NCBI RefSeq assembly: GCF_017348835.2
Contig: NZ_CP071375.1
DNA: 64,000 bases
Reading direction: 5' to 3' (one strand)
Source of the DNA: Escherichia coli
GTDB taxonomy: Bacteria > Pseudomonadota > Gammaproteobacteria > Enterobacterales > Enterobacteriaceae
Every line of letters begins with the position of its first letter. Position 1 is the stretch's first letter. The position numbers and the translations under genes were made by a program. Positions 3,210 to 24,925 of this stretch are shown piece after piece. The notes under the pieces are model-generated. The model saw only the letters and a program-made list of their open reading frames with translations, did not search any database and was not told where the DNA came from.

Positions 3210-3229
<20 letters not shown>

Positions 3230-4529: not shown

Positions 4530-4538
4530 GGGATGTTT

Positions 4539-4871: not shown

Positions 4872-4892
4872 CCTTACCCTTCATCACTAAAG

Positions 4893-4913
4893 GCCGCCTG
4901 TGCGGCTTTTTTT
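4893..4913 (+). terminator. Hairpin gccgc-ctgt-gcggc plus T7 between D and E (attenuator-like)
   Basis: Perfect GC stem followed by ttttttt read directly in sequence. Confidence 0.5.
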
Positions 4914-4926
4914 ACGGGATTTTTTT

Positions 4927-5952: not shown

Positions 5953-5993
5953 TCATGGCCCTTCGGGGCCATTTTCTCTCTGTGGAGGAGTCC

Positions 5994-6389: not shown

Positions 6390-6400
6390 CGGGAGGCGCT

Positions 6401-7736: not shown

Positions 7737-7743
7737 GGACGCT

Positions 7744-8484
7744 ATGCCTGTACCAAATCCTGTAATGCCGGTGAAAGGTGCCGGGACCACCCTGTGGGTT
7801 TATAAGGGGAGCGGTGACCCTTATGCGAATCCGCTTTCAGACGTTGACTGGTCGCGTCTGGCAAAAGTTAAAGACCTGACGCCCGGCGAACTGACCGCTG
7901 AGTCCTATGACGACAGCTATCTCGATGATGAAGATGCGGACTGGACTGCGACCGGGCAGGGGCAGAAATCAGCCGGAGATACCAGCTTCACGCTGGCGTG
8001 GATGCCCGGAGAGCAGGGGCAGCAGGCGCTGCTGGCGTGGTTTAATGAAGGTGATACCCGTGCCTATAAAATCCGCTTCCCGAACGGCACGGTCGATGTG
8101 TTCCGTGGCTGGGTCAGCAGTATCGGTAAAGCGGTGACGGCGAAGGAAGTGATCACCCGCACGGTGAAGGTCACCAATGTGGGACGTCCGTCGATGGCAG
8201 AAGATCGCAGCACGGTCACAGCGGCAACCGGCATGACCGTGACGCCTGCCAGCACCTCGGTGGTGAAAGGGCAGAGCACCACGCTGACCGTGGCATTCCA
8301 GCCGGAAGGCGCAACCGACAAGAGCTTCCGTGCGGTGTCTGCGGATAAAACAAAAGCCACCGTGTCGGTCAGTGGTATGACCATCACCGTGAAAGGTGTT
8401 GCTGCAGGCAAGGTCAACATTCCGGTCGTATCCGGTAATGGTGAACTTGCTGCGGTTGCAGAAATCACTGTCACCGACAGTTAA
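7744..8484 (+). CDS. V: Major tail tube protein V with C-terminal Ig-like domain
   Basis: 246 aa beginning [14 protein letters not shown]; the track ORF starts 30 nt upstream in the same frame. Confidence 0.93.
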
Positions 8485-8499
8485 TCCGGAGAGTCAGCG

Positions 8500-8922
8500 A
8501 TGTTCCTGAAAACCGAATCATTTGAACATAACGGCGTGACCGTCACGCTTTCTGAACTTTCAGCCCTGCAGCGTATTGAGCATCTCGCCCTGATGAAACG
8601 GCAGGCAGAACAGGCGGAGTCAGACAGCAACCGGAAGTTTACAGTGGAAGACGCCATCAGAACCGGTGCTTTTGTGGTGGCGATGTCCCTGTGGCATAAC
8701 CATCCGCAGAAGACAAAGCAGCCTTCCATGAATGAAGCCGTTAAACAGATTGAGCAGGAAGTGCTTACCACCTGGCCCACAGAGGCAATTTCTCATGCTG
8801 AAAACGTGGTGTACCGGCTGTCCGGTATGTATGAGTTTGTGGTGAATGATGCCCCTGAACAGGCAGAGGACGCCGGGCCTGCAGAGCCTGTTTCTGCGGG
8901 AAAGTGTTCGACGGTGAGCTGA
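8500..8922 (+). CDS. G: Tail assembly chaperone G
   Basis: 140 aa beginning MFLKTESFEHNGVTV. Confidence 0.92.
   Translation: MFLKTESFEHNGVTVTLSELSALQRIEHLALMKRQAEQAESDSNRKFTVEDAIRTGAFVVAMSLWHNHPQKTKQPSMNEAVKQIEQEVLTTWPTEAISHAENVVYRLSGMYEFVVNDAPEQAEDAGPAEPVSAGKCSTVS
8898..8904 (+). promoter_or_regulatory. Programmed -1 ribosomal frameshift slippery heptamer G GGA AAG (G to G-T fusion)
   Basis: Heptamer sits in the G zero frame as X XXY YYZ just before the G stop; the -1 frame continues open to 9338. Confidence 0.85.
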
Positions 8923-9338
8923 GTTTTGCCCTGAAACTGGCGCGCGAGATGGGGCGACCCGACTGGCGTGCCATGCTTGCCGGGATGTCATCCACGGAGT
9001 ATGCCGACTGGCACCGCTTTTACAGTACCCATTATTTTCATGATGTTCTGCTGGATATGCACTTTTCCGGGCTGACGTACACCGTGCTCAGCCTGTTTTT
9101 CAGCGATCCGGATATGCATCCGCTGGATTTCAGTCTGCTGAACCGGCGTGAGGCTGACGAAGAGCCTGAAGATGATGTGCTGATGCAGAAAGCGGCAGGG
9201 CTTGCCGGAGGCGTCCGCTTTGGCCCGGACGGGAATGAAGTTATCCCCGCTTCCCCGGATGTGGCGGACATGACGGAGGATGACGTAATGCTGATGACAG
9301 TATCAGAAGGGATCGCAGGAGGAGTCCGGTATGGCTGA
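8904..9338 (+). CDS. T: Tail assembly chaperone T frame, expected to be made only as the G-T frameshift fusion
   Basis: -1 frame ORF overlapping the end of G and ending at the start of H. Confidence 0.85.
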   Translation: MFDGELSFALKLAREMGRPDWRAMLAGMSSTEYADWHRFYSTHYFHDVLLDMHFSGLTYTVLSLFFSDPDMHPLDFSLLNRREADEEPEDDVLMQKAAGLAGGVRFGPDGNEVIPASPDVADMTEDDVMLMTVSEGIAGGVRYG

Positions 9339-11892
9339 ACCGGTAGGCGATCTGGTCGTTGATTTAAGTCTGGATGCGGCCAGATTTGACGAGCAGATGG
9401 CCAGAGTCAGGCGTCATTTTTCCGGTACGGAAAGTGATGCGAAAAAAACAGCGGCAGTCGTTGAACAGTCGCTGAGCCGACAGGCGCTGGCTGCACAGAA
9501 AGCGGGGATTTCCGTCGGGCAGTATAAAGCCGCCATGCGTATGCTGCCTGCACAGTTCACCGACGTGGCCACGCAGCTTGCAGGCGGGCAAAGTCCGTGG
9601 CTGATCCTGCTGCAACAGGGGGGGCAGGTGAAGGACTCCTTCGGCGGGATGATCCCCATGTTCAGGGGGCTTGCCGGTGCGATCACCCTGCCGATGGTGG
9701 GGGCCACCTCGCTGGCGGTGGCGACCGGTGCGCTGGCGTATGCCTGGTATCAGGGCAACTCAACCCTGTCCGATTTCAACAAAACGCTGGTCCTTTCCGG
9801 CAATCAGGCGGGACTGACGGCAGATCGTATGCTGGTCCTGTCCAGAGCCGGGCAGGCGGCAGGGCTGACGTTTAACCAGACCAGCGAGTCACTCAGCGCA
9901 CTGGTTAAGGCGGGGGTAAGCGGTGAGGCTCAGATTGCGTCCATCAGCCAGAGTGTGGCGCGTTTCTCCTCTGCATCCGGCGTGGAGGTGGACAAGGTCG
10001 CTGAAGCCTTCGGGAAGCTGACCACAGACCCGACGTCGGGGCTGACGGCGATGGCACGCCAGTTCCATAACGTGACGGCGGAGCAGATTGCGTATGTTGC
10101 TCAGTTGCAGCGTTCCGGCGATGAAGCCGGGGCATTGCAGGCGGCGAACGAGGCCGCAACGAAAGGGTTTGATGACCAGACCCGCCGCCTGAAAGAGAAC
10201 ATGGGCACGCTGGAGACCTGGGCAGACAGGACTGCGCGGGCCTTCAAATCCATGTGGGATGCGGTGCTGGATATTGGTCGTCCTGATACCGCGCAGGAGA
10301 TGCTGATTAAGGCAGAGGCTGCGTTTAAGAAAGCAGACGACATCTGGAATCTGCGCAAGGATGATTATTTTGTTAACGATGAAGCGCGGGCGCGTTACTG
10401 GGATGATCGTGAAAAGGCCCGTCTTGCGCTTGAAGCCGCCCGAAAGAAGGCTGAGCAGCAGACTCAACAGGACAAAAATGCGCAGCAGCAGAGCGATACC
10501 GAAGCGTCACGGCTGAAATATACCGAAGAGGCGCAGAAGGCTTACAAACGGCTGCAGACGCCGCTGGAGAAATATACCGCCCGTCAGGAAGAACTGAACA
10601 AGGCACTGAAAGACGGGAAAATCCTGCAGGCGGATTACAACACGCTGATGGCGGCGGCGAAAAAGGATTATGAAGCGACGCTGAAAAAGCCGAAACAGTC
10701 CGGCGTGAAGGTGTCTGCGGGCGATCGTCAGGAAGACAGTGCTCATGCTGCCCTGCTGACGCTTCAGGCAGAACTCCGGACGCTGGAGAAGCATGCCGGA
10801 GCGAATGAGAAAATCAGCCAGCAGCGCCGGGATTTGTGGAAGGCAGAAAGTCAGTTCGCGGTACTGGAGGAGGCGGCACAACGTCGCCAGCTGTCCGCAC
10901 AGGAGAAATCCCTGCTGGCGCATAAAGATGAGACGCTGGAGTACAAACGCCAGCTGGCTGCACTTGGCGACAAGGTTACGTATCAGGAGCGCCTGAACGC
11001 GCTGGCGCAGCAGGCGGATAAATTCGCACAGCAGCAACGGGCAAAACGGGCCGCCATTGATGCGAAAAGCCGGGGGCTGACTGACCGGCAGGCAGAACGG
11101 GAAGCCACGGAACAGCGCCTGAAGGAACAGTATGGCGATAATCCGCTGGCGCTGAATAACGTCATGTCAGAGCAGAAAAAGACCTGGGCGGCTGAAGACC
11201 AGCTTCGCGGGAGCTGGATGGCAGGCCTGAAGTCCGGCTGGAGTGAGTGGGAAGAGAGCGCCACGGACAGTATGTCGCAGGTAAAAAGTGCAGCCACGCA
11301 GACCTTTGATGGTATTGCACAGAATATGGCAGCGATGCTGACCGGCAGTGAGCAGAACTGGCGCAGCTTCACCCGTTCCGTGCTGTCCATGATGACAGAA
11401 ATTCTGCTTAAGCAGGCAATGGTGGGGATTGTCGGGAGTATCGGCAGCGCCATTGGCGGGGCTGTTGGTGGCGGCGCATCCGCGTCAGGCGGTACAGCCA
11501 TTCAGGCCGCTGCGGCGAAATTCCATTTTGCAACCGGAGGATTTACGGGAACCGGCGGCAAATATGAGCCAGCGGGGATTGTTCACCGTGGTGAATTTGT
11601 CTTCACGAAGGAGGCAACCAGCCGGATTGGCGTGGGGAATCTCTACCGGCTGATGCGCGGCTATGCCACCGGTGGTTATGTCGGTACACCGGGCAGTCTG
11701 GCTGACAGCCGGTCGCAGGCGTCCGGGACGTTTGAGCAGAATAACCATGTGGTGATTAACAACGACGGCACGAACGGGCAGATAGGTCCGGCTGCTCTGA
11801 AGGCGGTGTATGACATGGCCCGCAAGGGTGCCCGTGATGAAATTCAGACACAGATGCGTGATGGTGGCCTGTTCTCCGGAGGTGGACGATGA
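9331..11892 (+). CDS. H: Tail tape measure protein H
   Basis: 853 aa, long coiled-coil-like middle and Gly-rich C-terminal part, lambda gpH length. Confidence 0.93.
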   Translation: MAEPVGDLVVDLSLDAARFDEQMARVRRHFSGTESDAKKTAAVVEQSLSRQALAAQKAGISVGQYKAAMRMLPAQFTDVATQLAGGQSPWLILLQQGGQVKDSFGGMIPMFRGLAGAITLPMVGATSLAVATGALAYAWYQGNSTLSDFNKTLVLSGNQAGLTADRMLVLSRAGQAAGLTFNQTSESLSALVKAGVSGEAQIASISQSVARFSSASGVEVDKVAEAFGKLTTDPTSGLTAMARQFHNVTAEQIAYVAQLQRSGDEAGALQAANEAATKGFDDQTRRLKENMGTLETWADRTARAFKSMWDAVLDIGRPDTAQEMLIKAEAAFKKADDIWNLRKDDYFVNDEARARYWDDREKARLALEAARKKAEQQTQQDKNAQQQSDTEASRLKYTEEAQKAYKRLQTPLEKYTARQEELNKALKDGKILQADYNTLMAAAKKDYEATLKKPKQSGVKVSAGDRQEDSAHAALLTLQAELRTLEKHAGANEKISQQRRDLWKAESQFAVLEEAAQRRQLSAQEKSLLAHKDETLEYKRQLAALGDKVTYQERLNALAQQADKFAQQQRAKRAAIDAKSRGLTDRQAEREATEQRLKEQYGDNPLALNNVMSEQKKTWAAEDQLRGSWMAGLKSGWSEWEESATDSMSQVKSAATQTFDGIAQNMAAMLTGSEQNWRSFTRSVLSMMTEILLKQAMVGIVGSIGSAIGGAVGGGASASGGTAIQAAAAKFHFATGGFTGTGGKYEPAGIVHRGEFVFTKEATSRIGVGNLYRLMRGYATGGYVGTPGSLADSRSQASGTFEQNNHVVINNDGTNGQIGPAALKAVYDMARKGARDEIQTQMRDGGLFSGGGR

Positions 11893-12218
11893 AAACCTTC
11901 CGCTGGAAAGTGAAACCCGGTATGGATGTGGCTTCGGCCCCTTCTGTAAGAAAGGTGCGCTTTGGTGATGGCTATTCCCAGCGAGCGCCTGCCGGGCTGA
12001 ATGCCAACCTGAAAACGTACAGCGTGACGCTTTCTGTCCCCCGTGAGGAGGCCACGGTACTGGAGTCGTTTCTGGAAGAGCACGGGGGCTGGAAATCCTT
12101 TCTGTGGACGCCGCCTTATGAGTGGCGGCAGATAAAGGTGACCTGCGCAAAATGGTCGTCGCGGGTCAGTATGCTGCGTGTTGAGTTCAGCGCAGAGTTT
12201 GAACAGGTGGTGAACTGA
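11889..12218 (+). CDS. M: Tail tip protein M
   Basis: 109 aa, lambda order and size. Confidence 0.9.
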   Translation: MKTFRWKVKPGMDVASAPSVRKVRFGDGYSQRAPAGLNANLKTYSVTLSVPREEATVLESFLEEHGGWKSFLWTPPYEWRQIKVTCAKWSSRVSMLRVEFSAEFEQVVN

Positions 12219-12916
12219 TGCAGGATATCCGGCAGGAAACACTGAATGAATGCACCCGTGCGGAGCAGTCGGCCAGCGTGGTGCTCTGGGAAATCGACCT
12301 GACAGAGGTCGGTGGAGAACGTTATTTTTTCTGTAATGAGCAGAACGAAAAAGGTGAGCCGGTCACCTGGCAGGGGCGACAGTATCAGCCGTATCCCATT
12401 CAGGGGAGCGGTTTTGAACTGAATGGCAAAGGCACCAGTACGCGCCCCACGCTGACGGTTTCTAACCTGTACGGTATGGTCACCGGGATGGCGGAAGATC
12501 TGCAGAGTCTGGTCGGCGGAACGGTGGTCCGGCGTAAGGTTTACGCCCGTTTTCTGGATGCGGTGAACTTCGTCAACGGAAACAGTGACGCCGATCCGGA
12601 GCAGGAGGTGATCAGCCGCTGGCGCATCGAGCAGTGCAGCGAACTGAGCGCGGTGAGTGCCTCCTTTGTACTGTCCACGCCGACGGAAACGGATGGCGCT
12701 GTTTTTCCGGGACGTATCATGCTGGCCAACACCTGCACCTGGACCTATCGCGGTGACGAGTGCGGTTATAGCGGTCCGGCTGTCGCGGATGAATATGACC
12801 AGCCAACGTCCGATATCACGAAGGATAAATGCAGCAAATGCCTGAGCGGTTGTAAGTTCCGCAATAACGTCGGCAACTTTGGCGGCTTCCTTTCCATTAA
12901 CAAACTTTCGCAGTAA
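12218..12916 (+). CDS. L: Tail tip protein L
   Basis: 232 aa with C-terminal Cys cluster, lambda order and size. Confidence 0.9.
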   Translation: MQDIRQETLNECTRAEQSASVVLWEIDLTEVGGERYFFCNEQNEKGEPVTWQGRQYQPYPIQGSGFELNGKGTSTRPTLTVSNLYGMVTGMAEDLQSLVGGTVVRRKVYARFLDAVNFVNGNSDADPEQEVISRWRIEQCSELSAVSASFVLSTPTETDGAVFPGRIMLANTCTWTYRGDECGYSGPAVADEYDQPTSDITKDKCSKCLSGCKFRNNVGNFGGFLSINKLSQ

Positions 12917-12921
12917 ATCCC

Positions 12922-13665
12922 ATGACACAGACAGAATCAGCGATTCTGGCGCACGCCCGGCGATGTGCGCCAGCGGAGTCGTGCGGCTTTGTGGTAAGCA
13001 CGCCGGAGGGGGAAAGATATTTCCCCTGCGTGAATATCTCCGGTGAGCCGGAGGCGTATTTCCGTATGTCGCCGGAAGACTGGCTGCAGGCAGAAATGCA
13101 GGGTGAGATTGTGGCGCTGGTCCACAGCCACCCCGGTGGTCTGCCCTGGCTGAGTGAGGCCGACCGGCGGCTGCAGGTGCAGAGTGATTTGCCGTGGTGG
13201 CTGGTCTGCCGGGGGACGATTCATAAGTTCCGCTGTGTGCCGCATCTCACCGGGCGGCGCTTTGAGCACGGTGTGACGGACTGTTACACACTGTTCCGGG
13301 ATGCTTATCATCTGGCGGGGATTGAGATGCCGGACTTTCATCGTGAGGATGACTGGTGGCGTAACGGCCAGAATCTCTATCTGGATAATCTGGAGGCGAC
13401 GGGGCTGTATCAGGTGCCGTTGTCAGCGGCACAGCCGGGCGATGTGCTGCTGTGCTGTTTTGGTTCATCGGTGCCGAATCACGCCGCAATTTACTGCGGC
13501 GACGGCGAGCTGCTGCACCATATTCCTGAACAACTGAGCAAACGAGAGAGGTACACCGACAAATGGCAGCGACGCACACACTCCCTCTGGCGTCACCGGG
13601 CATGGCGCGCATCTGCCTTTACGGGGATTTACAACGATTTGGTCGCCGCATCGACCTTCGTGTGA
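12922..13665 (+). CDS. K: Tail tip assembly protein K (JAMM/MPN plus NlpC/P60-like domains)
   Basis: 247 aa; HSHPGG JAMM-type motif and a Cys-containing GVTDCY motif seen in translation. Confidence 0.88.
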   Translation: MTQTESAILAHARRCAPAESCGFVVSTPEGERYFPCVNISGEPEAYFRMSPEDWLQAEMQGEIVALVHSHPGGLPWLSEADRRLQVQSDLPWWLVCRGTIHKFRCVPHLTGRRFEHGVTDCYTLFRDAYHLAGIEMPDFHREDDWWRNGQNLYLDNLEATGLYQVPLSAAQPGDVLLCCFGSSVPNHAAIYCGDGELLHHIPEQLSKRERYTDKWQRRTHSLWRHRAWRASAFTGIYNDLVAASTFV

Positions 13666-14234
13666 AAACGGGGGCTGAAGCCATCCGGGCACTGGCCACA
13701 CAGCTCCCGGCGTTTCGTCAGAAACTGAGCGACGGCTGGTATCAGGTACGGATTGCCGGGCGGGACGTCAGCACGTCCGGGTTAACGGCGCAGTTACATG
13801 AGACTCTGCCTGATGGCGCTGTGATTCATATTGTTCCCAGAGTCGCCGGGGCCAAGTCAGGTGGCGTATTCCAGATTGTCCTGGGGGCTGCCGCCATTGC
13901 CGGATCATTCTTTACCGCCGGAGCCACCCTTGCAGCATGGGGGGCAGCCATTGGGGCCGGTGGTATGACCGGCATCCTGTTTTCTCTCGGTGCCAGTATG
14001 GTGCTCGGTGGTGTGGCGCAGATGCTGGCACCGAAAGCCAGAACTCCCCGTACACAGACAACGGATAACGGTAAGCAGAACACCTATTTCTCCTCACTGG
14101 ATAACATGGTTGCCCAGGGCAATGTTCTGCCTGTTCTGTACGGGGAAATGCGCGTGGGGTCACGCGTGGTTTCTCAGGAGATCAGCACGGCAGACGAAGG
14201 GGATGGTGGTCAGGTTGTGGTGATTGGTCGCTGA
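13563..14234 (+). CDS. I: Tail tip assembly protein I
   Basis: 223 aa, overlaps the 3' end of K as in lambda. Confidence 0.88.
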   Translation: MAATHTLPLASPGMARICLYGDLQRFGRRIDLRVKTGAEAIRALATQLPAFRQKLSDGWYQVRIAGRDVSTSGLTAQLHETLPDGAVIHIVPRVAGAKSGGVFQIVLGAAAIAGSFFTAGATLAAWGAAIGAGGMTGILFSLGASMVLGGVAQMLAPKARTPRTQTTDNGKQNTYFSSLDNMVAQGNVLPVLYGEMRVGSRVVSQEISTADEGDGGQVVVIGR

Positions 14235-14294
14235 TGAAAAACGTTTTATGTGAAACCGCCTCCGGGCGGTTTTGTCGTTTATGGAGCGTGAGGA

Positions 14295-17200
14295 ATGGGT
14301 AAAGGCAGCAGTAAGGGGCATACTCCGCGCGAAGCGAAGGACAACCTGAAGTCCACGCAGTTGCTGAGTGTGATCGATGCCATCAGCGAAGGGCCGGTTG
14401 AAGGTCCGGTGGATGGATTAAAAAGCGTGCTGCTGAACAGTACGCCAGTGCTGGACACTGAGGGGAATACCAACATCTCCGGCGTCACGGTGGTGTTCCG
14501 GCCCGGTGAGCAGGAGCAGACACCGCCGGAGGGATTTGAATCCTCCGGCTCCGAGGCGGTGCTGGGTACGGAAGTGAAATACGACACGCCGATTACCCGG
14601 ACCATCACGTCGGCAAACATCGACCGTCTGCGCTTTACCTTCGGTGTGCAGGCACTGGTGGAAACCACCTCAAAGGGGGACCGGAATCCGTCGGAAGTCC
14701 GCCTGCTGGTTCAGATACAGCGTAACGGTGGCTGGGTGACGGAAAAAGACATCACCATTAAAGGCAAAACCACCTCACAGTATCTGGCCTCGGTGGTGGT
14801 GGATAACCTGCCGCCGCGCCCGTTTAATATCCGGATGCGCAGGATGACGCCGGACAGCACCACAGACCAGCTGCAGAACAAAACGCTCTGGTCGTCATAC
14901 ACCGAAATCATCGATGTGAAACAGTGCTACCCGAACACGGCACTGGTCGGCGTACAGGTGGATTCGGAGCAGTTCGGCAGCCAGCAGGTGAGCCGTAATT
15001 ATCATCTTCGCGGGCGCATTCTGCAGGTGCCGTCGAACTATAACCCGCAGACGCGACAATACAGCGGTATCTGGGACGGAACGTTAAAACCGGCATACAG
15101 CAACAACATGGCCTGGTGTCTGTGGGATATGCTGACCCATCCGCGCTGCGGCATGGGGAAACGTCTTGGTGCGGCGGATGTGGATAAATGGGCGCTGTAT
15201 GTCATCGGCCAGAATTGCGACCAGTCGGTGCCGGATGGCTTTGGTGGCACGGAACCGCGTATCACCTGTAATGCGTACCTGACCACGCAGCGCAAGGCGT
15301 GGGATGTGCTCAGTGATTTCTGCTCGGCGATGCGCTGTATGCCGGTATGGAACGGGCAGACGCTGACGTTCGTGCAGGACCGGCCATCGGATAAGGTGTG
15401 GACCTATAACCGCAGTAATGTGGTGATGCCGGATGATGGCGCGCCGTTCCGCTACAGCTTCAGCGCCCTGAAGGACCGTCATAATGCCGTTGAGGTGAAC
15501 TGGATTGACCCGAATAACGGCTGGGAGACGGCGACAGAGCTTGTGGAGGATACGCAGGCCATTGTCCGTTACGGTCGTAACGTCACGAAGATGGATGCCT
15601 TTGGCTGTACCAGCCGGGGGCAGGCACACCGCGCCGGGCTGTGGCTGATTAAAACGGAGCTGCTGGAGACGCAGACCGTGGACTTCAGCGTGGGCGCAGA
15701 AGGGCTTCGCCATGTACCGGGCGATGTCATTGAAATCTGTGATGATGACTATGCCGGTATCAGCACCGGCGGGCGTGTGCTGGCGGTGAACAGCCAGACC
15801 CGGACGCTGACGCTCGACCGTGAAATCACGCTGCCATCCTCCGGTACCACGCTGATAAGCCTGGTTGACGGAAGTGGCAATCCGGTCAGCGTGGAGGTTC
15901 AGTCCGTCACCGACGGCGTGAAGGTGAAAGTGAGCCGTGTTCCTGACGGCGTTGCCGGATACAGCGTGTGGGGGCTGAAGCTGCCGACGCTGCGCCAGCG
16001 CCTGTTCCGCTGTGTGAGTATCCGTGAGAACGACGACGGCACGTATGCCATCACTGCCGTGCAGCATGTACCGGAAAAAGAGGCCATCGTGGATAACGGA
16101 GCGCACTTTGACGGCGACCAGAGCGGCACGGTGAATGGTGTCACGCCGCCAGCGGTGCAGCACCTGACCGCAGAAGTCACCGCAGACAGTGGGGAGTATC
16201 AGGTGCTGGCGCGCTGGGACACGCCGAAGGTAGTGAAGGGTGTGAGCTTTATGCTTCGCCTGACCGTGGCCGCCGATGACGGCAGTGAGCGGCTGGTCAG
16301 CACGGCCCGGACGACGGAAACCACTTACCGCTTCAGGCAGCTGGCGCTGGGGCGTTACACGCTGACGGTCCGGGCGGTAAATGCCCGGGGACAGCAGGGC
16401 GATCCGGCGTCGGTATCGTTCCGGATTGCCGCCCCGGCAGCGCCGTCGCGGATTGAGCTGACGCCGGGCTATTTTCAGATAACTGCCACGCCGCATCTTG
16501 CCGTTTATGATCCGACGGTACAGTTTGAGTTCTGGTTCTCGGAAACGCGGATTACCGATATCAGGCAGGTTGAAACCACAGCCCGCTACCTTGGCACGGG
16601 GCTGTACTGGATAGCCGCCAGTATCAATATCAAACCGGGCCATGATTATTACTTTTATATCCGCAGTGTGAACACCGTTGGCAAATCGGCATTCGTGGAG
16701 GCCGTCGGTCGGGCGAGCGATGATGCGGAAGGTTACCTGGATTTTTTCAAAGGCAAGATAACCGAATCCCATCTCGGTAAAGAGCTGCTGGAAAAAGTTG
16801 ATCTGACGGAGGATAACGCCAGCAGACTGGATGAGTTTTCGAAAGAGTGGAAGGACGCTAACGATAAATGGAATGCCATGTGGGGCGTCAAAATTGAGCA
16901 GACCAAAGACGGCAAACATTATGTCGCGGGTATTGGCCTCAGCATGGAGGACACGGAGGAAGGCAAGCTGAGCCAGTTTCTGGTTGCTGCTAACCGTATC
17001 GCGTTTATTGACCCGGCAAACGGGAATGAAACGCCGATGTTTGTGGCGCAGGGCAACCAGATATTCATGAACGACGTGTTCCTGAAACGCCTGACGGCAC
17101 CCACCATTACCAGCGGTGGCAGTCCTCCGGTATTTTCCCTGACATCAGACGGAAAGCTGACCGCTAAAAATGCGGATATCAGTGGCAGTGTGAATGCGAA

Positions 17201-17708
17201 CTCAGGGACGCTCAACAATGTCACGGTAAATGAAAACTGTACGATTAAGGGCATGCTGGAGGCGACTCAGGTCAGAGGTGACTTCGTTAAAGCTGTATCC
17301 AAATCATTTCCGAAACAGGCTGGTACGTGGGGTAACACGGAAACACCAAACGGGACGGTTACAGTCACCATCAGCGATGATCATAACTTTGACCGTCAAA
17401 TCATTATTCCGCCCATTATCTTTAACGGAATAGCGTATAGCGATCCGGGAAGTGGTAATAACCCGGGAGGTACAAGATACACGGGTTATGGTTTTGAAGT
17501 TCGCAAAAACGGTGTATTAATCGCATCCAGAGAAACTAAAGGGGCCATTCCCGGTAGCTACAGTGCGGTTATTGATATGCCGAGTGGCAGGGGAAGCGTC
17601 ACTCTGGAGTTTAAGGTTTTCCATAAAGGCAATCAGTGGGCAGGTAATATCACCGACTGTACGGTGATTGTGACCAAAAAAGCCGCTTCCGGCATCAGTA
17701 TTCGTTGA
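14295..17708 (+). CDS. J: Tail tip host-specificity protein J (central tail fibre)
   Basis: 1137 aa, lambda gpJ-like over most of its length; the last ~150 codons are compositionally distinct. Confidence 0.93.
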
Positions 17709-17728
17709 AATTGTTATAACCCATATAA

Positions 17729-17754
17729 GGGCACCAGAAATGGTGCCTTTTTTA
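17729..17754 (+). terminator. Rho-independent terminator after J (ggcacc-agaaat-ggtgcc plus T6)
   Basis: Hairpin plus T-run read in sequence. Confidence 0.6.
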
Positions 17755-17777
17755 TTGCAGAAAAGCGAGAGGTAATT

Positions 17778-18377
17778 ATGCGTAAACTTTATGCCGCCAT
17801 TTTGTCCGCAGCCATTTGTCTGGCCGTATCCGGTGCGCCTGCATGGGCATCTGAACATCAGTCCACGCTGAGCGCGGGGTATCTTCATGCCTCGACGAAC
17901 GTTCCCGGCAGCGATGATCTTAACGGGATTAACGTGAAATACCGTTATGAGTTTACGGACACACTGGGGCTGGTGACGTCATTCAGCTATGCAGGAGACA
18001 AGAATCGCCAGCTTACCCGTTACAGCGATACCCGCTGGCATGAAGATTCCGTGCGTAACCGCTGGTTCAGCGTGATGGTGGGGCCGTCTGTGCGCGTGAA
18101 TGAATGGTTCAGCGCGTATGCGATGGCGGGTATGGCTTACAGCCGTGTGTCGACTTTCTCCGGGGATTATCTCCGCGTAACTGACAACAAGGGGAAAACG
18201 CACGACGTGCTGACCGGAAGTGATGACGGTCGCCACAGCAACACGTCTCTGGCGTGGGGAGCTGGCGTGCAGTTTAACCCGACCGAATCCGTGGCCATTG
18301 ATATTGCTTATGAAGGCTCCGGCAGTGGCGACTGGCGCACTGACGGTTTCATCGTGGGTGTCGGTTATAAATTCTGA
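17778..18377 (+). CDS. lom: Outer membrane beta-barrel protein Lom (Ail/Lom/PagC family)
   Basis: 199 aa with signal peptide [24 protein letters not shown] and C-terminal F as in OM beta-barrels. Confidence 0.9.
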
Positions 18378-18441: not shown

Positions 18442-21402
18442 ATGGCAGTAAAGATTTCAGGTGTACTGAAAGACGGCACAGGAAAACCGGTACAGAACTG
18501 CATAATCCAGCTGAAAGCAAAACGTAACAGCACCACGGTGGTGGTGAACACGCTGGCCTCAGAAAATCCGGATGAAGCCGGGCGTTACAGCATGGACGTT
18601 GAGTACGGTCAGTACAGCGTTATTCTGTTGGTGGAGGGATTCCCGCCGTCACATGCCGGGACCATCACCGTGTATGAAGATTCTCAACCCGGTACGCTGA
18701 ATGATTTTCTCGGTGCCATGACGGAGGATGATGCCCGTCCGGAGGCACTGCGTCGTTTTGAACTGATGGTGGAAGAGGTGGCGCGTAACGCGTCCGTGGT
18801 GGCACAGAACACGGCAGCCGCAAAGAAGTCAGCCAGTGATGCCAGCACATCTGCCAGTGAGGCGGCAACCCGTGCGACTGATGCTGCAGATTCAGCACGT
18901 GCAGCCAGCACGTCAGCCGGACAGGCCGCGTCGTCGGCTCAGTCAGCGTCTTCCAGCGCAGGAACGGCATCAGCAAAAGCCTCTGAGGCATCAAAAAGTG
19001 CTGCCGCTGCAGAGTCCTCAAAAAGCGCGGCGGCTACCAGTGCCGGTGCGGCGAAAACGTCAGAAACGAATGCGGCAGCGTCAGAACAATCAGCCGCCAC
19101 TTCTGCATCCACCGCGACCACGAAAGCGTCAGAAGCTGCCACCTCAGCCCGGGATGCGGCGGCCTCAAAAGAGGCGGCAAAATCATCAGAAACGAGCGCA
19201 GCCTCGAGCGCCAGTAATGCCGCTTCCTCGGCAACGGCGGCAGGAAATTCCGCGAAGGCGGCAAAGACGTCTGAGACAAACGCTAAGTCCTCTGAAACGG
19301 CAGCAGCACAGAGTGCCTCCGCAGGCGCAGACTCAAAAACAGCGGCTGCATCATCTGCCAGCGCCGCGTCAACAAGTGCCGGGCAGGCCTCAGCCAGTGC
19401 CACCGCTGCCGGAAAGTCGGCAGAAAGTGCCGCATCGTCTGCTTCAACAGCCACAACGAAGGCTGGCGAAGCCACTGAACAGGCCAGCGCAGCAGCGAGT
19501 TCTGCTTCCGCAGCGAAGACATCCGAAACGAACGCGAAAGCGTCGGAAACCAGCGCAGAATCCTCAAAAACTGCTGCCGCATCGTCAGCCAGTTCGGCGG
19601 CGTCATCGGCATCATCTGCGTCTGCTTCAAAAGATGAGGCGACCAGACAAGCGTCAGCAGCGAAGAGCAGCGCCACGACGGCATCCACGAAGGCGACAGA
19701 GGCAGCTGGCAGTGCGACGGCGGCAGCTCAGAGCAAAAGTACGGCGGAATCCGCGGCAACGCGCGCCGAGACAGCGGCAAAACGGGCAGAGGATATTGCA
19801 TCCGCCGTGGCGCTTGAAGATGCGAGCACGACGAAAAAGGGGATAGTACAGCTCAGCAGTGCGACTAACAGCACTTCCGAGTCACTGGCGGCAACGCCAA
19901 AAGCAGTTAAGTCCGCGTATGACCTGGCTAACGGGAAATACACCGCACAGGATGCAACGACAGCACAGAAAGGGATAGTTCAGCTCAGCAGCGCGACCAA
20001 CAGCACATCTGAAATGCTGGCGGCAACGCCAAAGTCGGTAAAGGCAGCCTATGACCTTGCTAACGGGAAATATACCGCTCAGGACGCTACGACAGCACAA
20101 AAAGGAATTATCCAGCTCAGTAGTGCAACCAACAGCGCATCTGAAACGCTTGCCGCGACACCGAAAGCAGTGAAAGCAGCTAATGATAATGCGAATGGTC
20201 GGGTACCTTCTGCCCGTAAGGTGAATGGTAAGGCGCTTTCAGCGGATATAACACTGACGCCGAAAGATATTGGTACGCTTAACTCAACAACAATGTCATT
20301 CAGCGGTGGTGCTGGTTGGTTCAAATTAGCAACGGTAACCATGCCACAGGCGAGTTCTGTTGTTTCAATTACGTTGATTGGTGGCGCGGGATTTAACGTG
20401 GGGTCACCTCAACAGGCAGGTATATCTGAACTTGTTTTGCGTGCAGGTAATGGTAATCCGAAGGGGATTACTGGTGCTTTATGGCAGCGCACATCGACAG
20501 GGTTTACAAATTTTGCCTGGGTCAATACATCTGGTGATACTTACGATATTTACGTTGCAATCGGAAATTATGCGACTGGTGTAAATATTCAATGGGATTA
20601 TACCAGTAATGCCAGCGTGACTATTCATACGTCACCAGCATATTCTGCTAATAAGCCGGAAGGGTTAACGGACGGTACAGTTTATTCACTCTATACGCCA
20701 TCAGAGCAGTTTTATCCGCCTGGCGCACCAATCCCGTGGCCATCAGATACCGTTCCGTCTGGTTATGCCCTGATGCAGGGGCAGACTTTTGACAAATCTG
20801 CATACCCGAAACTTGCAGCCGCTTATCCGTCAGGCGTGATCCCTGATATGCGTGGCTGGACGATTAAGGGCAAACCCGCCAGTGGTCGTGCCGTATTGTC
20901 TCAGGAACAGGACGGCATTAAATCGCACACCCACAGCGCCAGCGCATCCAGTACGGATTTGGGGACGAAAACCACATCGTCGTTTGATTACGGCACTAAA
21001 TCCACGAATAACACCGGGGCTCATACGCACAGTCTGAGCGGCTCTACAAGCTCGGCCGGAGCACACTCGCACGTTGATGGTCGCAGGTTTAATACAAGCA
21101 CTTTTAAAGACACCTATCAGTATGGTTCTACAGCTGTCGGAAGTAACTCATACCAGGTACAAGGGGCGGTTGGTCTGGGCATTGGCACGATGGCGAATAC
21201 GAACTCTGCTGGCGCGCATACCCACTCACTGTCCGGCACTGCTGCAAGCGCAGGTGCACACGCACATACTGTCGGTATTGGTGCTCATACGCACTCCGTT
21301 GCGATTGGCTCACATGGACACACCATCACCGTTAACGCTGCTGGTAACGCGGAAAACACCGTCAAAAACATCGCATTTAACTATATTGTGAGGCTTGCAT
21401 AA
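18442..21402 (+). CDS. stf: Side tail fibre protein
   Basis: 986 aa: ~330-aa Ala/Ser/Thr-rich low-complexity segment, three tandem 44-aa tail fibre repeats, His-rich distal part with GAHTHS motifs. Confidence 0.9.
19819..20214 (+). repeat. Three tandem 132-bp coding repeats inside stf (phage tail fibre repeat)
   Basis: Unit [44 protein letters not shown] repeated at 19819, 19951 and 20083. Confidence 0.85.
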
Positions 21403-21986
21403 TGGCATTCAGAATGAGTGAACAAGCACGGACCATAAAAATTTATAATCTGCTGGCCGGAACTAATGAATTTATTGGTGAAGGTGATGCATATATTCCG
21501 CCTCATACAGGTCTGCCAGCAAACAGTACCGATATTGCACCACCAGATATTCCTGCTGGCTTTGTGGCTGTTTTCAACAGTGATGAGGCATCGTGGCATC
21601 TCGTTGAAGACCATCTGGGTAAAACGGTTTATGACGTAGCGTCAGGGGACGAGTTATTTATTTCTGAACTCGGTCCGTTACCGGAAAATGTTACCTGGTT
21701 ATCGCCGGAAGGGGAGTTTCAGAAGTGGAACGGCACAGCCTGGGTGAAAGATGCAGAAGCAGAAAAACTGTTCCGGATCCGAGAGGCGGAAGAAATAAAA
21801 AACAGCCTGATGCAGGTAGCCAGTGAGCATATTGCGCCACTTCAGGATGCTGTAGATCTGGAAATCGCAACGGAGGAAGAAACCTCATTGTTGGAAGCCT
21901 GGAAAAAGTATCGGGTGTTGCTGAACCGTGTTGATACATCAACTGCACCTGATATTGAGTGGCCTACGAATCCTGTCAGGGAGTAA
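21402..21986 (+). CDS. tfa: Tail fibre assembly chaperone
   Basis: 194 aa beginning [17 protein letters not shown]; start overlaps the stf stop (TAATG). Confidence 0.9.
21821..21941 (+). repeat. Direct repeat copy A (3' part of tfa)
   Basis: ~88 percent identical to 22870-22990, including a 40-nt identical core. Confidence 0.8.
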
Positions 21987-22040
21987 TCATTGGGATTATG
22001 CCGCAGCACGTCTTAAGCAAGAACGTGCTGCGGTTGGATG

Positions 22041-22709
22041 CTATTTTTTCCCTGAAGCGGAAAACATTACTACAGTACCTTGAACCTTGGTTTTAACATT
22101 CTCGAAATGCTCTGAGAGTATATGTGTTAAGCCTTCTTCGGAATCTTTTGTGTTTGAAAAGATGCCTTTCTGATTGTAAATGCGCATCAGTTTTTGACCG
22201 AAGCTATTGTGCACAACTCCATCGCCAAGAATTGTGGCTCCGTATAGAGTTCCATCGTCAGTTAAGGCCTGCGCCGCATTGCGTATTACACAGCTTTTTG
22301 TAGATATATTTCCAGGCAGGCAGTGAAGAAGGTAAAACATGGAAATGGAATCAAATTGACCATGTAACGCCGCGGGATAAGGTTCAAAAACATCATGGCT
22401 AATTTTATGTTTAATTTTTGATTCCCCAGCCCTTGTAGATGCCGCGTTCAGGCTAGCTTCGTTCAAATCCATTAAAGATATCAGACTACTCTCAGGTACG
22501 TGAGTAAGGTAAAACCCAGTTCCAACACCAATATCCAGATGGTTGTTACCTAAATGTTCCAGAAAGTGTGGAAGAAGGTGTTCCTTTGTAGGACATCCCC
22601 ATGCAAGCCGATTTGATACTCCCAAAACCCACCAGTCATAAAGCTTTAGGGTAAGTGGTGTGTAAATTTTAGCCCCATCATCTGTGTTTTTTTTCATTAA
22701 TTTCACCAT
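22041..22709 (-). CDS. ybcY: Class I SAM-dependent methyltransferase (prophage cargo, YbcY-like)
   Basis: 222 aa with GxGxG SAM motif LDIGVGTGFY; no DPPY/NPPY DNA-methylase motif; symbol from remembered K-12 DLP12 gene order. Confidence 0.75.
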   Translation of the reverse strand: MVKLMKKNTDDGAKIYTPLTLKLYDWWVLGVSNRLAWGCPTKEHLLPHFLEHLGNNHLDIGVGTGFYLTHVPESSLISLMDLNEASLNAASTRAGESKIKHKISHDVFEPYPAALHGQFDSISMFYLLHCLPGNISTKSCVIRNAAQALTDDGTLYGATILGDGVVHNSFGQKLMRIYNQKGIFSNTKDSEEGLTHILSEHFENVKTKVQGTVVMFSASGKK

Positions 22710-22765
22710 GTTATAGTTTTATTTGTGAATTAAATCAATTATGGCGATGAATTACAAGGGGTTAA

Positions 22766-23071
22766 ATGCTGCCGCAGCATAGCGATATTGAAATAGCCTG
22801 GTATGCTTCGATACAACAGGAGCCGAATGGCTGGAAGACCGTCACCACACAGTTCTACATCCAGGAATTCAGTGAGTATATTGCGCCACTGCAGGATGCT
22901 GTAGATCTGGAAATCGCAACGGAGGAAGAAAGATCGTTGCTGGAGGCATGGAATAAATATCGGGTATTGTTGAATCGAGTTGATACATCAGTAGCTCTGG
23001 GTATGAAGCTGTTTGTAACTCATGTTACAGTAACAGTCATTACTATCTCGAAGGTGCAAAATGTATATTGA
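22766..23071 (+). pseudogene. tfaX: Tail fibre assembly protein remnant (C-terminal Tfa segment only)
   Basis: 101-aa ORF containing [38 protein letters not shown], a near copy of the Tfa C-terminus; no Tfa N-domain. Confidence 0.65.
22870..22990 (+). repeat. Direct repeat copy B (within the tfa remnant)
   Basis: Pairs with 21821-21941. Confidence 0.8.
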
Positions 23072-23199
23072 TTTGATATTTTATAAATTTACTTCGAATC
23101 TGGCACGTCAACTTTTGATTAAAGTAATATCAGTTTTCGGCGAAAAAAGGACCGTGTACATGAGACGATTTCATACAATAATAACAAAAATATGAATAT

Positions 23200-23233
23200 G
23201 CTCCCAATGCAATATATGTTTTGCATTGGGAGC
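23200..23233. terminator. Perfect 13-bp-stem hairpin downstream of the hydrolase gene
   Basis: gctcccaatgcaa-tatatgtt-ttgcattgggagc read in sequence. Confidence 0.55.
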
Positions 23234-23254
23234 AAATAGCGGAATATTTTGAAA

Positions 23255-24739
23255 TTATTGTATTTCTGCTTCAGAATTTCCTGGGCAGTATATATTTTCT
23301 ATTTTTTGTGGAGTGATCAGGTGATGTACAACTGCTTTATCTACACATAAATTAACTCCGGTGAGAGCTAATGTATGCCCATCACCATTTATTGTTAGTA
23401 ACGGGCTGGAAAATTTCTCTGCCATCTTACGGGCATTAATCCAGGGCGTTGTTGGGTCGTATTTGTGTGCTATAAACAGTAAACCAGAGGGCAGAACAGT
23501 ATTTTTCAGGCGAGTTTTGTTCAGGTCGCTATGTATTGGCCATAATTCACAAAAATCAGGTGAATCGGAACGTCCATTGTCAAAGTTAATAGCCGGGAAG
23601 GCATTCGCAAGAGCGTCTTTTCGGGATTTTCGCTCTTCTGGTGTTAATTGCTCATCCCCCTGATCTACACAGAGGATTACCCCCGAAGCATCGCTTGACT
23701 CTTCTGAGGCTATCGGAGCACTGAGCGCAGTTTCAATTTCATTACTGACAATCCCCTGAGAGAACTGGCGTATGGCAGTTGCAAGGGTTGGCCATGATGA
23801 ACGCCATAGCAGAAGGTCTGTTGTTAATGATATGAGTTCATCTGAAGATATATTTTCTCTCTTACTGTCTAATAAAGGTTTGTGATGTAATTTTGATAAT
23901 AGCTCATGGAACTGAGTTATTGCCTTATCTCTGTCTGAAGAAAGCGGGCAACTTTTTGTACGCGCACACCAGGATGCAAAGCGATCAAACGTTTCCTGAT
24001 AACTCTGTGCCTGTTTGAGTTGCCATGTGAAGTTGTCCTCCAGGTCATCGATATCGACGACTCCATCAAGAACGATAGATCTTACGTTGTAGGGAAAACG
24101 TTCTGCATATAAGGCTGCAATTTGAGTTCCATACGAATACGCCACGGCTGTCAGTTGTTTATCCCCCAAGGCTTGCCTAATACGATCAATATCGTATACA
24201 GCCTCGTTAGAGCCGATATGGCGAATGACTTCGGCTCCGGTATTATGGATACAGGCATTAATTTTATTTAATACTTGTTGCTTTTCGGTTATGTTTTCCT
24301 GAGTCTCTGTATCTGATTGCCGGCAGTTTATTGTCGGAGTGGACTGTCCGACGCCTCGAGGATCAAATCCAATAATATCCCATGACTCACGAAGATTTGT
24401 GACTGGCCAGTCAAAGTTAATATAAGGATTTATGCCTGGTAACCCGGGACCACCACTTATTATCAGGATACTTCCTTTATGCTTGCTTTTTGCCGGCAAT
24501 TTTGTCAACGCTAGTTTGACTTGTGATTTTTTTTCATAAGAAGCATCTCCGCCTGTGTCTGTATATTTTAATGGAACAGACAAATAACCACATAGTAAGT
24601 CAGGAGACGGTTTTTCCTCACCAAACCAGTGGTTGAATTGACTGGCCATACAGGATTGCCACTGTATCTGCTGGGCAGATACGGTTACTGGTAGAAGTAA
24701 CGTTAAAACAACTTTGAAATGAGTAATTATTTTTCGCAT
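23255..24739 (-). CDS. Secreted alpha/beta-hydrolase, peptidase S33 / TAP-like family, unknown substrate
   Basis: 494 aa; signal peptide MRKIITHFKVVLTLLLPVTVSAQQ; GGPG oxyanion motif, FDPRGVGQS, nucleophile elbow AYSYG, C-terminal Asp (KYDPTTP) and His (NGDGHT); low-GC gene. Confidence 0.7.
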   Translation of the reverse strand: MRKIITHFKVVLTLLLPVTVSAQQIQWQSCMASQFNHWFGEEKPSPDLLCGYLSVPLKYTDTGGDASYEKKSQVKLALTKLPAKSKHKGSILIISGGPGLPGINPYINFDWPVTNLRESWDIIGFDPRGVGQSTPTINCRQSDTETQENITEKQQVLNKINACIHNTGAEVIRHIGSNEAVYDIDRIRQALGDKQLTAVAYSYGTQIAALYAERFPYNVRSIVLDGVVDIDDLEDNFTWQLKQAQSYQETFDRFASWCARTKSCPLSSDRDKAITQFHELLSKLHHKPLLDSKRENISSDELISLTTDLLLWRSSWPTLATAIRQFSQGIVSNEIETALSAPIASEESSDASGVILCVDQGDEQLTPEERKSRKDALANAFPAINFDNGRSDSPDFCELWPIHSDLNKTRLKNTVLPSGLLFIAHKYDPTTPWINARKMAEKFSSPLLTINGDGHTLALTGVNLCVDKAVVHHLITPQKIENIYCPGNSEAEIQ

Positions 24740-24925
24740 TGTGTCTCTGAATATCGGAATAAAGATAAGATTTGAATATATTGAGGTCTTGTGTTGCGGT
24801 AAGAGATTACACGTTATGACATAGGTTAAATGCTTACAAAATTAGTGGATATTGCCTACTTGTAACTGTAAACAAATTCCCCGGGGTTATACAATACCAC
24901 CGGGGAGAAAATCTGGTTAACTTCG

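What the first reader, a model, noticed from the sequence alone, without database searches (positions are those of the whole stretch)
17280..17708. Compositionally distinct C-terminal segment of J suggests a swapped receptor-binding domain
The last ~150 codons of J are visibly more AT-rich than the rest of the gene and of the tail operon. In lambda the C-terminal part of J determines receptor specificity, so this looks like a mosaic junction bringing in a receptor-binding domain from another source.
Basis: inference. Interest (0 to 1): 0.4.

Follow-up and report, generated by a model that had tools for sequence, protein, structure and literature searches.

The report
434-type receptor-binding module in prophage J
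The AT-rich tail end of this prophage's tail-tip gene J is a real, exchangeable receptor-binding module of the well-known phage-434 type (expected to bind the porin OmpC, not lambda's LamB); it is common in E. coli and already described.

Summary
J is window 14295-17708 (1137 aa). Its last 164 codons have 46.7% GC (GC3 0.47), against 58.1% (GC3 0.70) for the rest of J. That is lower than any equal-sized window in the 17.2 kb upstream.

The interpretation also holds. Nucleotide identity to lambda J is about 95-97% up to about 17215-17265. It then falls to about 50% (38% at protein level). The domain is still the same fold (Pfam Ig_GpJ_C; TM 0.72 to solved lambda and A8 gpJ receptor-binding domains).

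The module is the phage 434 / lambda h434 type (94.5% aa identity to 434 J). The literature ties that type to OmpC.

- Among 81 J genes with near-identical backbones, the C-terminus falls into at least six discrete types, all breaking at about 17220-17260.
- For the four non-lambda types tested, similarity resumes at about 17560-17670.
- A second, finer junction lies at 17205-17226. The backbone is 99.3% like mEp460_ev081. The module is 100% identical to phage Perceval and to Stx1a/Stx2c phages whose J backbone is only 79% identical.

Caveats: the GC decline starts earlier (about 16455) and that step is shared with lambda. Most module types are AT-rich, so lambda is the outlier. Modularity of this region was published in 2018. 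The finding is ordinary and already known.

The parts
14295..17708 (+). Gene J (tail tip attachment / host specificity protein), 1137 aa, intact
   Evidence: ORF listing. NCBIfam lambda_TipJ NF049904 scores 2277 bits against a cut-off of 1950, full length. Pfam domains FNIII-A_GpJ, Phage-tail_3, Ig_J, Ig_J_second, Phage_Tail_Tip and Ig_GpJ_C. 88% aa identity to lambda J overall.
14295..16454 (+). J backbone part 1 (aa 1-720: hub domains and first Ig/FNIII domain); GC 60.2%
   Evidence: 95.0% nt identity to lambda and 99.3% to mEp460_ev081, but only 78.7% to Stx2c_JNE110649. GC.
16455..17213 (+). J backbone part 2 (aa 721-973: second Ig-like domain and the helical shaft / beta-prism fibre); GC 52.0%. 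This first GC step is shared with lambda and 434
   Evidence: 94.6% nt identity to lambda, 96.8% to 434, 99.1% to mEp460_ev081. Lambda and 434 show the same GC drop here. Pfam Ig_J_second at aa 716-818 and Phage_Tail_Tip at aa 846-972.
17205..17265 (+). Left recombination junction zone (aa about 971-990, motif NVTxNENCTI), between the fibre and the receptor-binding domain
   Evidence: The lambda blastn match ends at 17264. Most maximum-likelihood change points of the five other module types fall at 17219-17258; 4 of 22 c1 loci break earlier, at 17114-17145. Versus Perceval and Stx2c the last mismatch is at 17204, and versus mEp460_ev081 the dense mismatches start at 17226.
17214..17705 (+). 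C-terminal receptor-binding module of J (aa 974-1137), 434 type; GC 46.7%. Variable core is about 17250-17670
   Evidence: 38.5% aa identity to lambda and 94.5% to phage 434. 100% nt identity to Perceval and to Stx1a/Stx2c phages. Pfam Ig_GpJ_C at aa 1001-1136. AF2 model with pLDDT 77, TM 0.72 to 9wcb, 8xck and 8xcj.
17670..17708 (+). Conserved last 12 codons of J ([12 protein letters not shown]) plus the stop codon: right-hand flank of the variable core
   Evidence: Nucleotide similarity to three other module types (c2, c4, c5) resumes at 17670 and to c1 at 17559, and runs on into lom. KK..GIS is conserved in alignment A1.
17727..17750 (+). Terminator-like hairpin after J
   Evidence: Pattern scan finds a 10-pair stem followed by a T run. 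A terminator is annotated at the equivalent place in phage 434.
17778..18377 (+). lom (Ail/Lom outer-membrane beta-barrel, 199 aa), the common type; not part of the exchangeable module
   Evidence: 99.6% nt identity to 434 lom and 45% aa identity to lambda Lom. The 199-aa lom accompanies every module type except lambda's.

Best explanation
The last 164 codons of J (17214-17705) encode the receptor-binding domain of the tail tip. The domain is an Ig-like beta-sandwich that sits as a trimer at the end of the central fibre and inserts variable loops into a trimeric outer-membrane porin.

In this prophage the domain is the phage 434 / lambda-h434 allele class, not lambda's. By homology the phage should adsorb irreversibly to OmpC rather than LamB.

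The domain behaves as an exchangeable cassette. The variable core (about 17250-17670) lies between sequences conserved among lambdoid phages. On the left is the J fibre, up to the NVTxNENCTI motif. On the right are the last dozen or so codons of J, the terminator and lom. Homologous recombination in these flanks moves the cassette between otherwise unrelated J backbones.

This prophage itself carries an mEp460_ev081-like backbone joined at 17205-17226 to the Perceval / Stx-phage allele of the 434-type module.

The low GC reflects the separate evolutionary history of the cassette pool, mainly different synonymous codon usage. It does not point to an exotic donor.

Shown here: the composition, the junctions, the discrete types, the incongruent histories and the fold. 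Inferred: OmpC as receptor, trimeric loop insertion, and flank-mediated homologous recombination as the mechanism.
For: Composition:
- Measured.

Homology break versus lambda:
- It falls at 17215-17265.

434 type:
- 91.9% nt and 94.5% aa identity to phage 434 J in the C-terminus.
- No phage record lies between 60% and 90% aa identity: 74 records are at 90% or more and 169 are below 60%.

Discrete module types:
- At least six types sit on backbones that are at least 91% identical, and most left breaks fall at 17219-17258.
- For c1, c2, c4 and c5 similarity resumes at 17559-17670; lambda's does not resume until inside lom.

Incongruent histories:
- mEp460_ev081 is 99.3% and 99.1% identical in the backbone but 91.3% in the module, with 43 mismatches confined to 17226-17645.
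- Stx2c_JNE110649 is 78.7% identical in aa 1-720 but 100% in the module.
- Perceval shows 1166 nt of perfect identity from 17205 to 18370.

Domain and fold:
- Pfam Ig_GpJ_C.
- phmmer of the module alone against PDB lambda gpJ gives E 8e-19, and against A8 gpJ 5e-28.
- Foldseek TM 0.72 with E about 1e-13 to 9wcb (A8 gpJ with OmpC) and to 8xck/8xcj (lambda gpJ without and with LamB); the next hits have E of 5e-4 or worse.
- Conserved framework residues with four variable loop regions.
- Within-type polymorphisms fall mostly in those loop regions.

Literature:
- Replacing lambda J with 434's switches the receptor to OmpC, and the C-terminus of gpJ sets host specificity (PMC11101478).
- J residues 960-1132 circulate as an independent evolutionary module (PMC6646904).
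- Grafting natural gpJ C-termini onto lambda J retargets particles to OmpC (PMC11338833).
Against: - No adsorption data exist for this exact allele. It differs from 434 J at 9 of 164 residues, mostly in the variable loop regions: V978I, E980Q, S1004A, Q1008K, A1009V, N1019D, S1049D, R1099G, W1115R. In lambda and phi21 one to four substitutions can add a new porin (PMC11336670).
- The GC contrast with the immediately preceding 759 nt is only marginal over all positions (p = 0.076). Composition alone is therefore weak evidence for the junction.
- The AF2 model is of moderate confidence (pLDDT 77, 13-sequence alignment, monomer only).
- Recombination was inferred from identity profiles and change points, not from a formal test such as GARD or RDP.
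Confidence: 0.88

Rival explanations
1. The C-terminus diverged in place from a lambda-like ancestor under diversifying selection for host range, without any recombination. The AT-richness would be a by-product of loop amino-acid composition and relaxed codon usage.
For: The domain is homologous to lambda's along its whole length, with conserved framework residues. Roughly one third of the GC drop is explained by amino-acid composition. Within-type polymorphisms cluster in the variable loop regions, as expected under selection.
Against: The module is 100% identical at nucleotide level in phages whose J backbone is only 79-96% identical. It is 91% identical in the phage whose backbone is 99.3% identical. 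Identity changes step-wise within about 50 nt. The types are discrete, with nothing between 60% and 90% aa identity. Window versus 434 differences in the module are mostly synonymous: 24 synonymous against 9 non-synonymous codon differences.
Confidence: 0.04
2. The AT-rich tail is only the end of a general 5'-to-3' GC decline along J that all lambdoid J genes share. On this reading the compositional observation carries no information about a swap.
For: GC already falls from 60% to 52% at about 16455 in the window, in lambda and in 434 alike, where the three are 90-100% identical. The module's all-position GC is not significantly below that of the adjacent 759 nt (p = 0.076).
Against: Lambda's own module does not drop further (54.3% against 53.1% for lambda aa 721-973), whereas the window's and 434's do (46.7% and 47.8%). 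GC3 falls from 0.62 to 0.47 (p = 0.004). The second step coincides with the homology break.
Confidence: 0.05
3. The module is a real swapped receptor-binding domain, but this allele recognises a receptor other than OmpC (for example OmpF, LamB or a specific OmpC variant only). Its loop residues differ from those of phage 434.
For: Nine residues differ from 434 J, mostly in the variable loop regions, and residue 1115 is tri-allelic W/G/R. One to four J substitutions shift porin use in lambda and phi21. Engineered chimeras A8 and 1A2 discriminate between OmpC alleles.
Against: Identity to 434 is 94.5% aa, and all 434-type sequences form one tight cluster of at least 90% aa identity. Phage Ayreon, with a 100% identical module, was isolated on a K-12 derivative.
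Confidence: 0.15

Closest known systems
Phage 434 J / lambda h434 host-range allele (OmpC-dependent central tail fibre)
   Same: Same length (1137 aa). 95.2% nt identity over the whole gene, and 94.5% aa identity in the receptor-binding module. Same 199-aa lom downstream, at 99.6%.
   Different: The module is a distinct allele: 40 nt and 9 aa differences, most of them between 17226 and 17645. That allele is shared at 100% with Perceval and Stx1a/Stx2c phages. The side tail fibre gene diverges from 434's after 18863.
Lambda J (gpJ) receptor-binding domain bound to LamB (PDB 8xcj, 8xck, 8iyk)
   Same: Backbone aa 1-973 is about 95% nt identical. Same domain order. The C-terminal domain has the same fold (TM 0.72) and belongs to the same Pfam family, Ig_GpJ_C.
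   Different: Only 38.5% aa identity in aa 974-1137. The 434 type has a longer second loop ([21 protein letters not shown]). GC is 46.7% against 54.3%. Lambda's downstream lom is also of a different type.
A8 gpJ chimera module (PDB 9wca; 9wcb in complex with OmpC of EDL933)
   Same: A natural lambdoid J C-terminus grafted onto lambda J that uses OmpC. It is the best structural and sequence match in the PDB (E 5e-28, 45% identity, TM 0.72). It is also AT-rich (type c2, GC 46.8%).
   Different: A different module type: 44-47% aa identity, 159 against 164 aa, with different loops.
J 'specificity region' evolutionary module (Maddamsetti et al. 2018, PMC6646904)
   Same: That paper shows that residues 960-1132 of J have a phylogeny discordant with the rest of J and circulate as an independent unit. 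The four indel hotspots it reports (near 1012, 1048, 1077 and 1107) probably correspond to the four variable loop regions in alignment A1, but I did not map them onto lambda numbering.
   Different: Nothing essential. This report adds the nucleotide-level junctions in this prophage, the right-hand boundary, and the composition of each module type.

Membership tests
Lambda-type tail tip attachment protein J (NCBIfam NF049904 lambda_TipJ) | Full-length match above the curated cut-off | tested here: met
   2277 bits against a cut-off of 1950, residues 1-1137.
Lambda-type tail tip attachment protein J | Position in the tail operon: after the K and I homologues, before lom and stf/tfa | tested here: met
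   Gene order M-L-K-I-J-lom-stf-tfa in the matching annotated genome PE164 and in phage 434.
gpJ C-terminal receptor-binding domain (Pfam PF12421 Ig_GpJ_C) | Profile match to the C-terminal domain | tested here: met
   aa 1001-1136, E 2e-25, model positions 1-134 of 135.
gpJ C-terminal receptor-binding domain | Ig-like beta-sandwich fold as in solved gpJ structures | tested here: met
   AF2 model with pLDDT 77 and pTM 0.70, all-beta. Foldseek TM 0.72 with E about 1e-13 to 9wcb, 8xck, 9wca and 8xcj.
gpJ C-terminal receptor-binding domain | Homotrimer whose distal loops contact a trimeric porin | not testable with these tools
   Only a monomer could be modelled. Inferred from PDB 8xcj and 9wcb and from PMC11101478.
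434 / h434 allele class of the J module | Close sequence identity to the phage 434 J C-terminus, distinct from other classes | tested here: met
   94.5% aa and 91.9% nt identity to 434. All other classes are at 52% aa identity or less. The gap between 60% and 90% is empty.
434 / h434 allele class of the J module | OmpC-dependent, LamB-independent adsorption | not testable with these tools
   Needs adsorption, plating or transduction assays on ompC and lamB mutants. The literature link of 434 J to OmpC is in PMC11101478.
Independently exchanged 'specificity region' module (PMC6646904) | Module history incongruent with backbone history, with sharp junctions | tested here: met
   Backbone nearest neighbour mEp460_ev081 is 99.3% identical in the backbone and 91.3% in the module. 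Module-identical phages have 78.7-95.8% identity over J aa 1-720. Junction at 17205-17226.

The most novel reading that the evidence does not exclude
This exact allele carries W1115, R1099, S1049, Q1008 and N1019. It is 100% identical at nucleotide level in a pig E. coli prophage, in phage Perceval and in Stx1a/Stx2c phages with very different J backbones. That pattern could mark a recent horizontal sweep of a sub-specificity tuned to particular OmpC alleles. The handful of recurrently polymorphic loop positions in 434-type modules (1008/1009, 1019, 1049/1050, 1099, 1108/1110, 1115) would then form a readable code for OmpC-variant specificity.
Probability: 0.25. Interest if true: 0.35.

Novelty: already known. 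Interest (0 to 1): 0.1.

Why it matters
The practical value is annotation-level. This prophage's particles should target OmpC-bearing E. coli rather than LamB-bearing cells.

The junction coordinates (left about 17205-17265, right about 17670) mark natural splice points of the kind already used to retarget lambda-derived delivery vehicles.

The result also gives a caution for composition-based scans:
- The AT-rich step does mark a module boundary here.
- However, an equally large GC step 800 nt upstream marks none relative to lambda.
- The AT-rich state is the norm for J receptor-binding modules. Lambda, the reference, is the atypical one.

No open question is resolved and no new kind of system is implied.

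Tried and rejected
1. I took the first GC step (about 16455) as a possible swap boundary. Rejected: lambda and 434 share the same step at 90-100% identity.

2. I asked whether the module and lom move together. Against lambda the divergent block runs from 17265 to about 18250 and includes most of lom. Rejected as a general rule: the 199-aa lom accompanies every module type, and only lambda's module comes with lambda's 206-aa lom. For the other types similarity resumes inside the end of J.

3. In-place divergence without recombination was rejected on the incongruent identities.

4. I looked for receptor data on phages carrying this allele.
- Searches for the PhiR/ECOR13 phages found nothing relevant.
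- The 2026 receptor-prediction preprint does not cover lambdoid J modules.
- The 434 genome announcement does not mention OmpC.
- The Ur-lambda structure paper mentions OmpC only as the receptor of the side tail fibres, not of J.

5. Technical: locus L002 was written into the file of L001, which broke two scripts. Phage 434 was refetched as L003. One paper reading failed on a term that was too short.

6. No formal recombination test or tree comparison was run. Identity profiles, mismatch maps and two-rate change points were used instead.

Full report
**What is there**

The finding sits at the 3' end of a 3414-nt ORF, window 14295-17708 (+), encoding 1137 aa.
- It is a full-length member of NCBIfam lambda_TipJ (2277 bits against a cut-off of 1950).
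- Pfam finds FNIII-A_GpJ, Phage-tail_3, Ig_J, Ig_J_second (aa 716-818), Phage_Tail_Tip (aa 846-972) and Ig_GpJ_C, the 'C-terminal receptor binding domain' (aa 1001-1136).
- The gene lies in a lambda-like late operon, followed by a terminator-like hairpin (17727-17750), then lom (17778-18377), stf and tfa.
- Window 1-38400 matches the chromosome of pig E. coli strain PE164 with one mismatch.
- The prophage occupies the DLP12 / ompT-envY-nfrA-cus locus.

**Checking the observation**

| Segment | GC | GC3 |
|---|---|---|
| J aa 974-1137 | 46.7% | 0.47 |
| J aa 721-973 | 52.0% | 0.62 |
| J aa 1-720 | 60.2% | 0.73 |
| upstream operon (1-14294) | 57.6% | not computed |

- No 492-nt window anywhere in 1-17213 is that low; the minimum is 50.4%.
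- Against all upstream J the difference is highly significant (p = 3.6e-6 for all positions; 7e-9 for GC3).
- Against only the adjacent 759 nt it is marginal for all positions (p = 0.076) and clear at third positions (p = 0.004).
- If the module used the backbone's codon preferences for its own amino acids, its GC would be 54.5%. Most of the drop is therefore synonymous.
The GC decline is stepwise, and its first step (about 16455) occurs equally in lambda and phage 434, where the three sequences are 90-100% identical.

**Checking the interpretation against lambda**

- blastn identity to lambda is 97.6% from window 9000 to 17264. It then disappears until a short piece inside lom (17917-17975) and resumes at 18250.
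- In 150-nt windows, identity to lambda falls from 93-97% to 41-56% across 17145-17370, while identity to phage 434 stays at 88-94%.
- The base-level alignment puts the last long identical run at about 17214. A small conserved island (ENCTI) follows, and divergence with indels comes after it.
- At protein level, aa 1-973 are nearly identical to lambda J. The last 164 residues align end to end at 38.5% identity.

**What the module is**

- The C-terminal 152 residues alone hit the solved lambda gpJ (E 8e-19) and 'A8 gpJ' (E 5e-28) chains.
- An AlphaFold2 model built from a 13-sequence alignment of module types is all-beta, with pLDDT 77.
- That model matches the receptor-binding domains of A8 gpJ with OmpC (9wcb) and of lambda gpJ without and with LamB (8xck, 8xcj). 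TM is 0.72 and E about 1e-13, and every unrelated hit has E of 5e-4 or worse.
- Alignment A1 shows invariant framework residues (FDRQ, DMP.G.G, L.F, KK..GI) separated by four variable, indel-rich regions. I read these as the counterparts of the four receptor-contacting loops described for lambda (PMC11101478). That correspondence was not checked residue by residue.
- The module is the phage 434 type: 91.9% nt and 94.5% aa identity to 434 J.
- According to PMC11101478, lambda carrying the 434 tail-fibre gene binds OmpC, the receptor of 434.
- Engineered lambda particles with other natural gpJ C-termini are likewise retargeted to OmpC (PMC11338833).
- OmpC use by this allele is therefore an inference by homology, not a result.

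**Evidence that it is an exchangeable cassette**

- In the phage collection the module finds 74 records at 90% aa identity or more, 169 below 60%, and none in between.
- I fetched 80 IMG/VR loci whose J aa 721-973 are closely related to the window's. With the phage records, 81 complete C-termini fall into at least six discrete types:

| Type | n | GC |
|---|---|---|
| 434 type | 34 | 47.1% |
| c1 | 21 | 50.1% |
| c2 (the A8 type) | 18 | 46.8% |
| lambda type | 4 | 54.3% |
| c4 | 2 | 42.9% |
| c5 | 1 | 46.3% |

- For the five non-434 types, most left change points against the window fall at 17219-17258; 4 of 22 c1 loci break earlier, at 17114-17145.
- On the right, nucleotide similarity resumes at 17670 for c2, c4 and c5 and at 17559 for c1. 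It continues through the intergenic region and lom.
- The 199-aa lom accompanies every type except lambda's. The exchanged unit is therefore the roughly 420-nt core at 17250-17670, and lambda's module-plus-lom block is the exception.

**A finer junction in this prophage**

- The closest backbone is mEp460_ev081 (99.3% and 99.1% in the two backbone parts). Its module is only 91.3% identical, and all 43 mismatches lie in 17226-17645.
- The module is 100% identical to Perceval, with no mismatch from 17205 to 18370.
- It is also 100% identical to Stx1a/Stx2c phages whose J aa 1-720 are 78.7% identical.
- Differences between the two 434-type alleles are mostly synonymous: 24-26 synonymous against 9-10 non-synonymous codon differences. 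This argues for old, separately evolving alleles brought together by recombination, not for recent in-place divergence.
- Amino-acid polymorphisms within the type recur at a few positions, most of them in the variable loop regions (1008/1009, 1019, 1049/1050, 1099, 1108/1110, 1115). Residue 1115 is W here and G or R elsewhere.

**How common and how new**

- A 434-type module is present in 2091 of 5426 complete E. coli genomes.
- It is present in 74 of 243 J-bearing phage records.
- Maddamsetti et al. 2018 (PMC6646904) already showed that J residues 960-1132 have a phylogeny discordant with the rest of J. [quoted passage not shown]
- The h434 host-range allele is classical genetics (PMC9119081; PMC11101478).
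- The finding is thus correct but ordinary. This analysis adds the exact junctions in this prophage and the right-hand boundary. It also shows that AT-richness is the usual state of these modules and that lambda's is the outlier.

**Mechanism, with status of each step**

1. J's C-terminal Ig-like domain is the receptor-binding tip. Shown by family membership and fold.
2. It is of the 434 class and differs from lambda's. Shown.
3. It binds OmpC as a trimer through its variable loops. Inferred from 434 genetics and from the 9wcb and 8xcj structures.
4. It was placed on this backbone by homologous recombination in the conserved flanks at 17205-17265 and at about 17670 onward. Inferred from step-like identity profiles and incongruent nearest neighbours, not formally tested.
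5. Its low GC reflects a separate history of the module pool. Inferred from GC3 and from the composition of the other types.

**Rivals**

- In-place divergence is contradicted by the incongruent identities (confidence 0.04).
- 'Just a shared GC gradient' explains the first step but not the second, which lambda lacks (0.05).
- A receptor other than OmpC remains possible, because few loop changes can shift porin use in lambda and phi21 (PMC11336670) (0.15).

Noticed in passing
window 16400-16500 (J aa about 720): GC drops from about 62-70% to about 50% here, at the start of the second Ig-like domain (Pfam Ig_J_second, aa 716-818). Lambda and 434 show the same step, so it is not a junction relative to them. 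It might be an older module boundary.
   Followed up: partly
window 14295-16028 and 16755-17057: J holds further mosaic junctions in relatives. Stx2c-type J is 60-87% identical up to about 16028 and 90-98% after it. cdtI/Ayreon-type J carries an alternative segment over 16755-17057 (31-64% identity) with an 84-nt insertion in the helical-shaft / fibre region.
   Followed up: partly
window 17637 (J codon 1115): Residue 1115 is tri-allelic among 434-type modules: W in the window allele, G or R elsewhere. It lies in the fourth variable region of alignment A1 and is a candidate specificity-tuning position.
   Followed up: partly
window 18442-21402 (stf, 986 aa): The side tail fibre gene has a striking AT skew of +0.35 to +0.43 over 18800-20100, and a 132-nt tandem repeat (2.6 copies, 79% matches) at 19835-20180. 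Similarity to phage 434 stops at 18863, and lambda matches only in patches. It has no NCBIfam hit.
   Followed up: no
window 21745-21943: Rfam IS009 sRNA model matches at 225 bits inside the tail fibre assembly gene tfa (21402-21986), on the same strand.
   Followed up: no
window 26392-28466: envY is split by an IS3-family insertion sequence. Its frameshift pseudoknot is detected at 27007-27123 (Rfam ALIL). The matching PE164 annotation shows the two envY halves.
   Followed up: no
window 22000-26000: A low-GC (about 41%) stretch lies just past the prophage tail genes. It holds a class I SAM-dependent methyltransferase, a tfa remnant, an alpha/beta hydrolase and ompT.
   Followed up: no
window 49097-49252 and 50197-50238: Rfam hits to the sok antitoxin RNA (87 bits) and to the ES036 sRNA (42 bits), in the chromosomal part of the window.
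   Followed up: no
window 1-38400: This stretch is identical, bar one mismatch, to E. coli PE164 (pig, diarrhoea and blood, Nanjing), NZ_CP114128 3557092-3595491 on the reverse strand. The prophage sits at the DLP12 site, and iss lies upstream of the window in that genome.
   Followed up: yes
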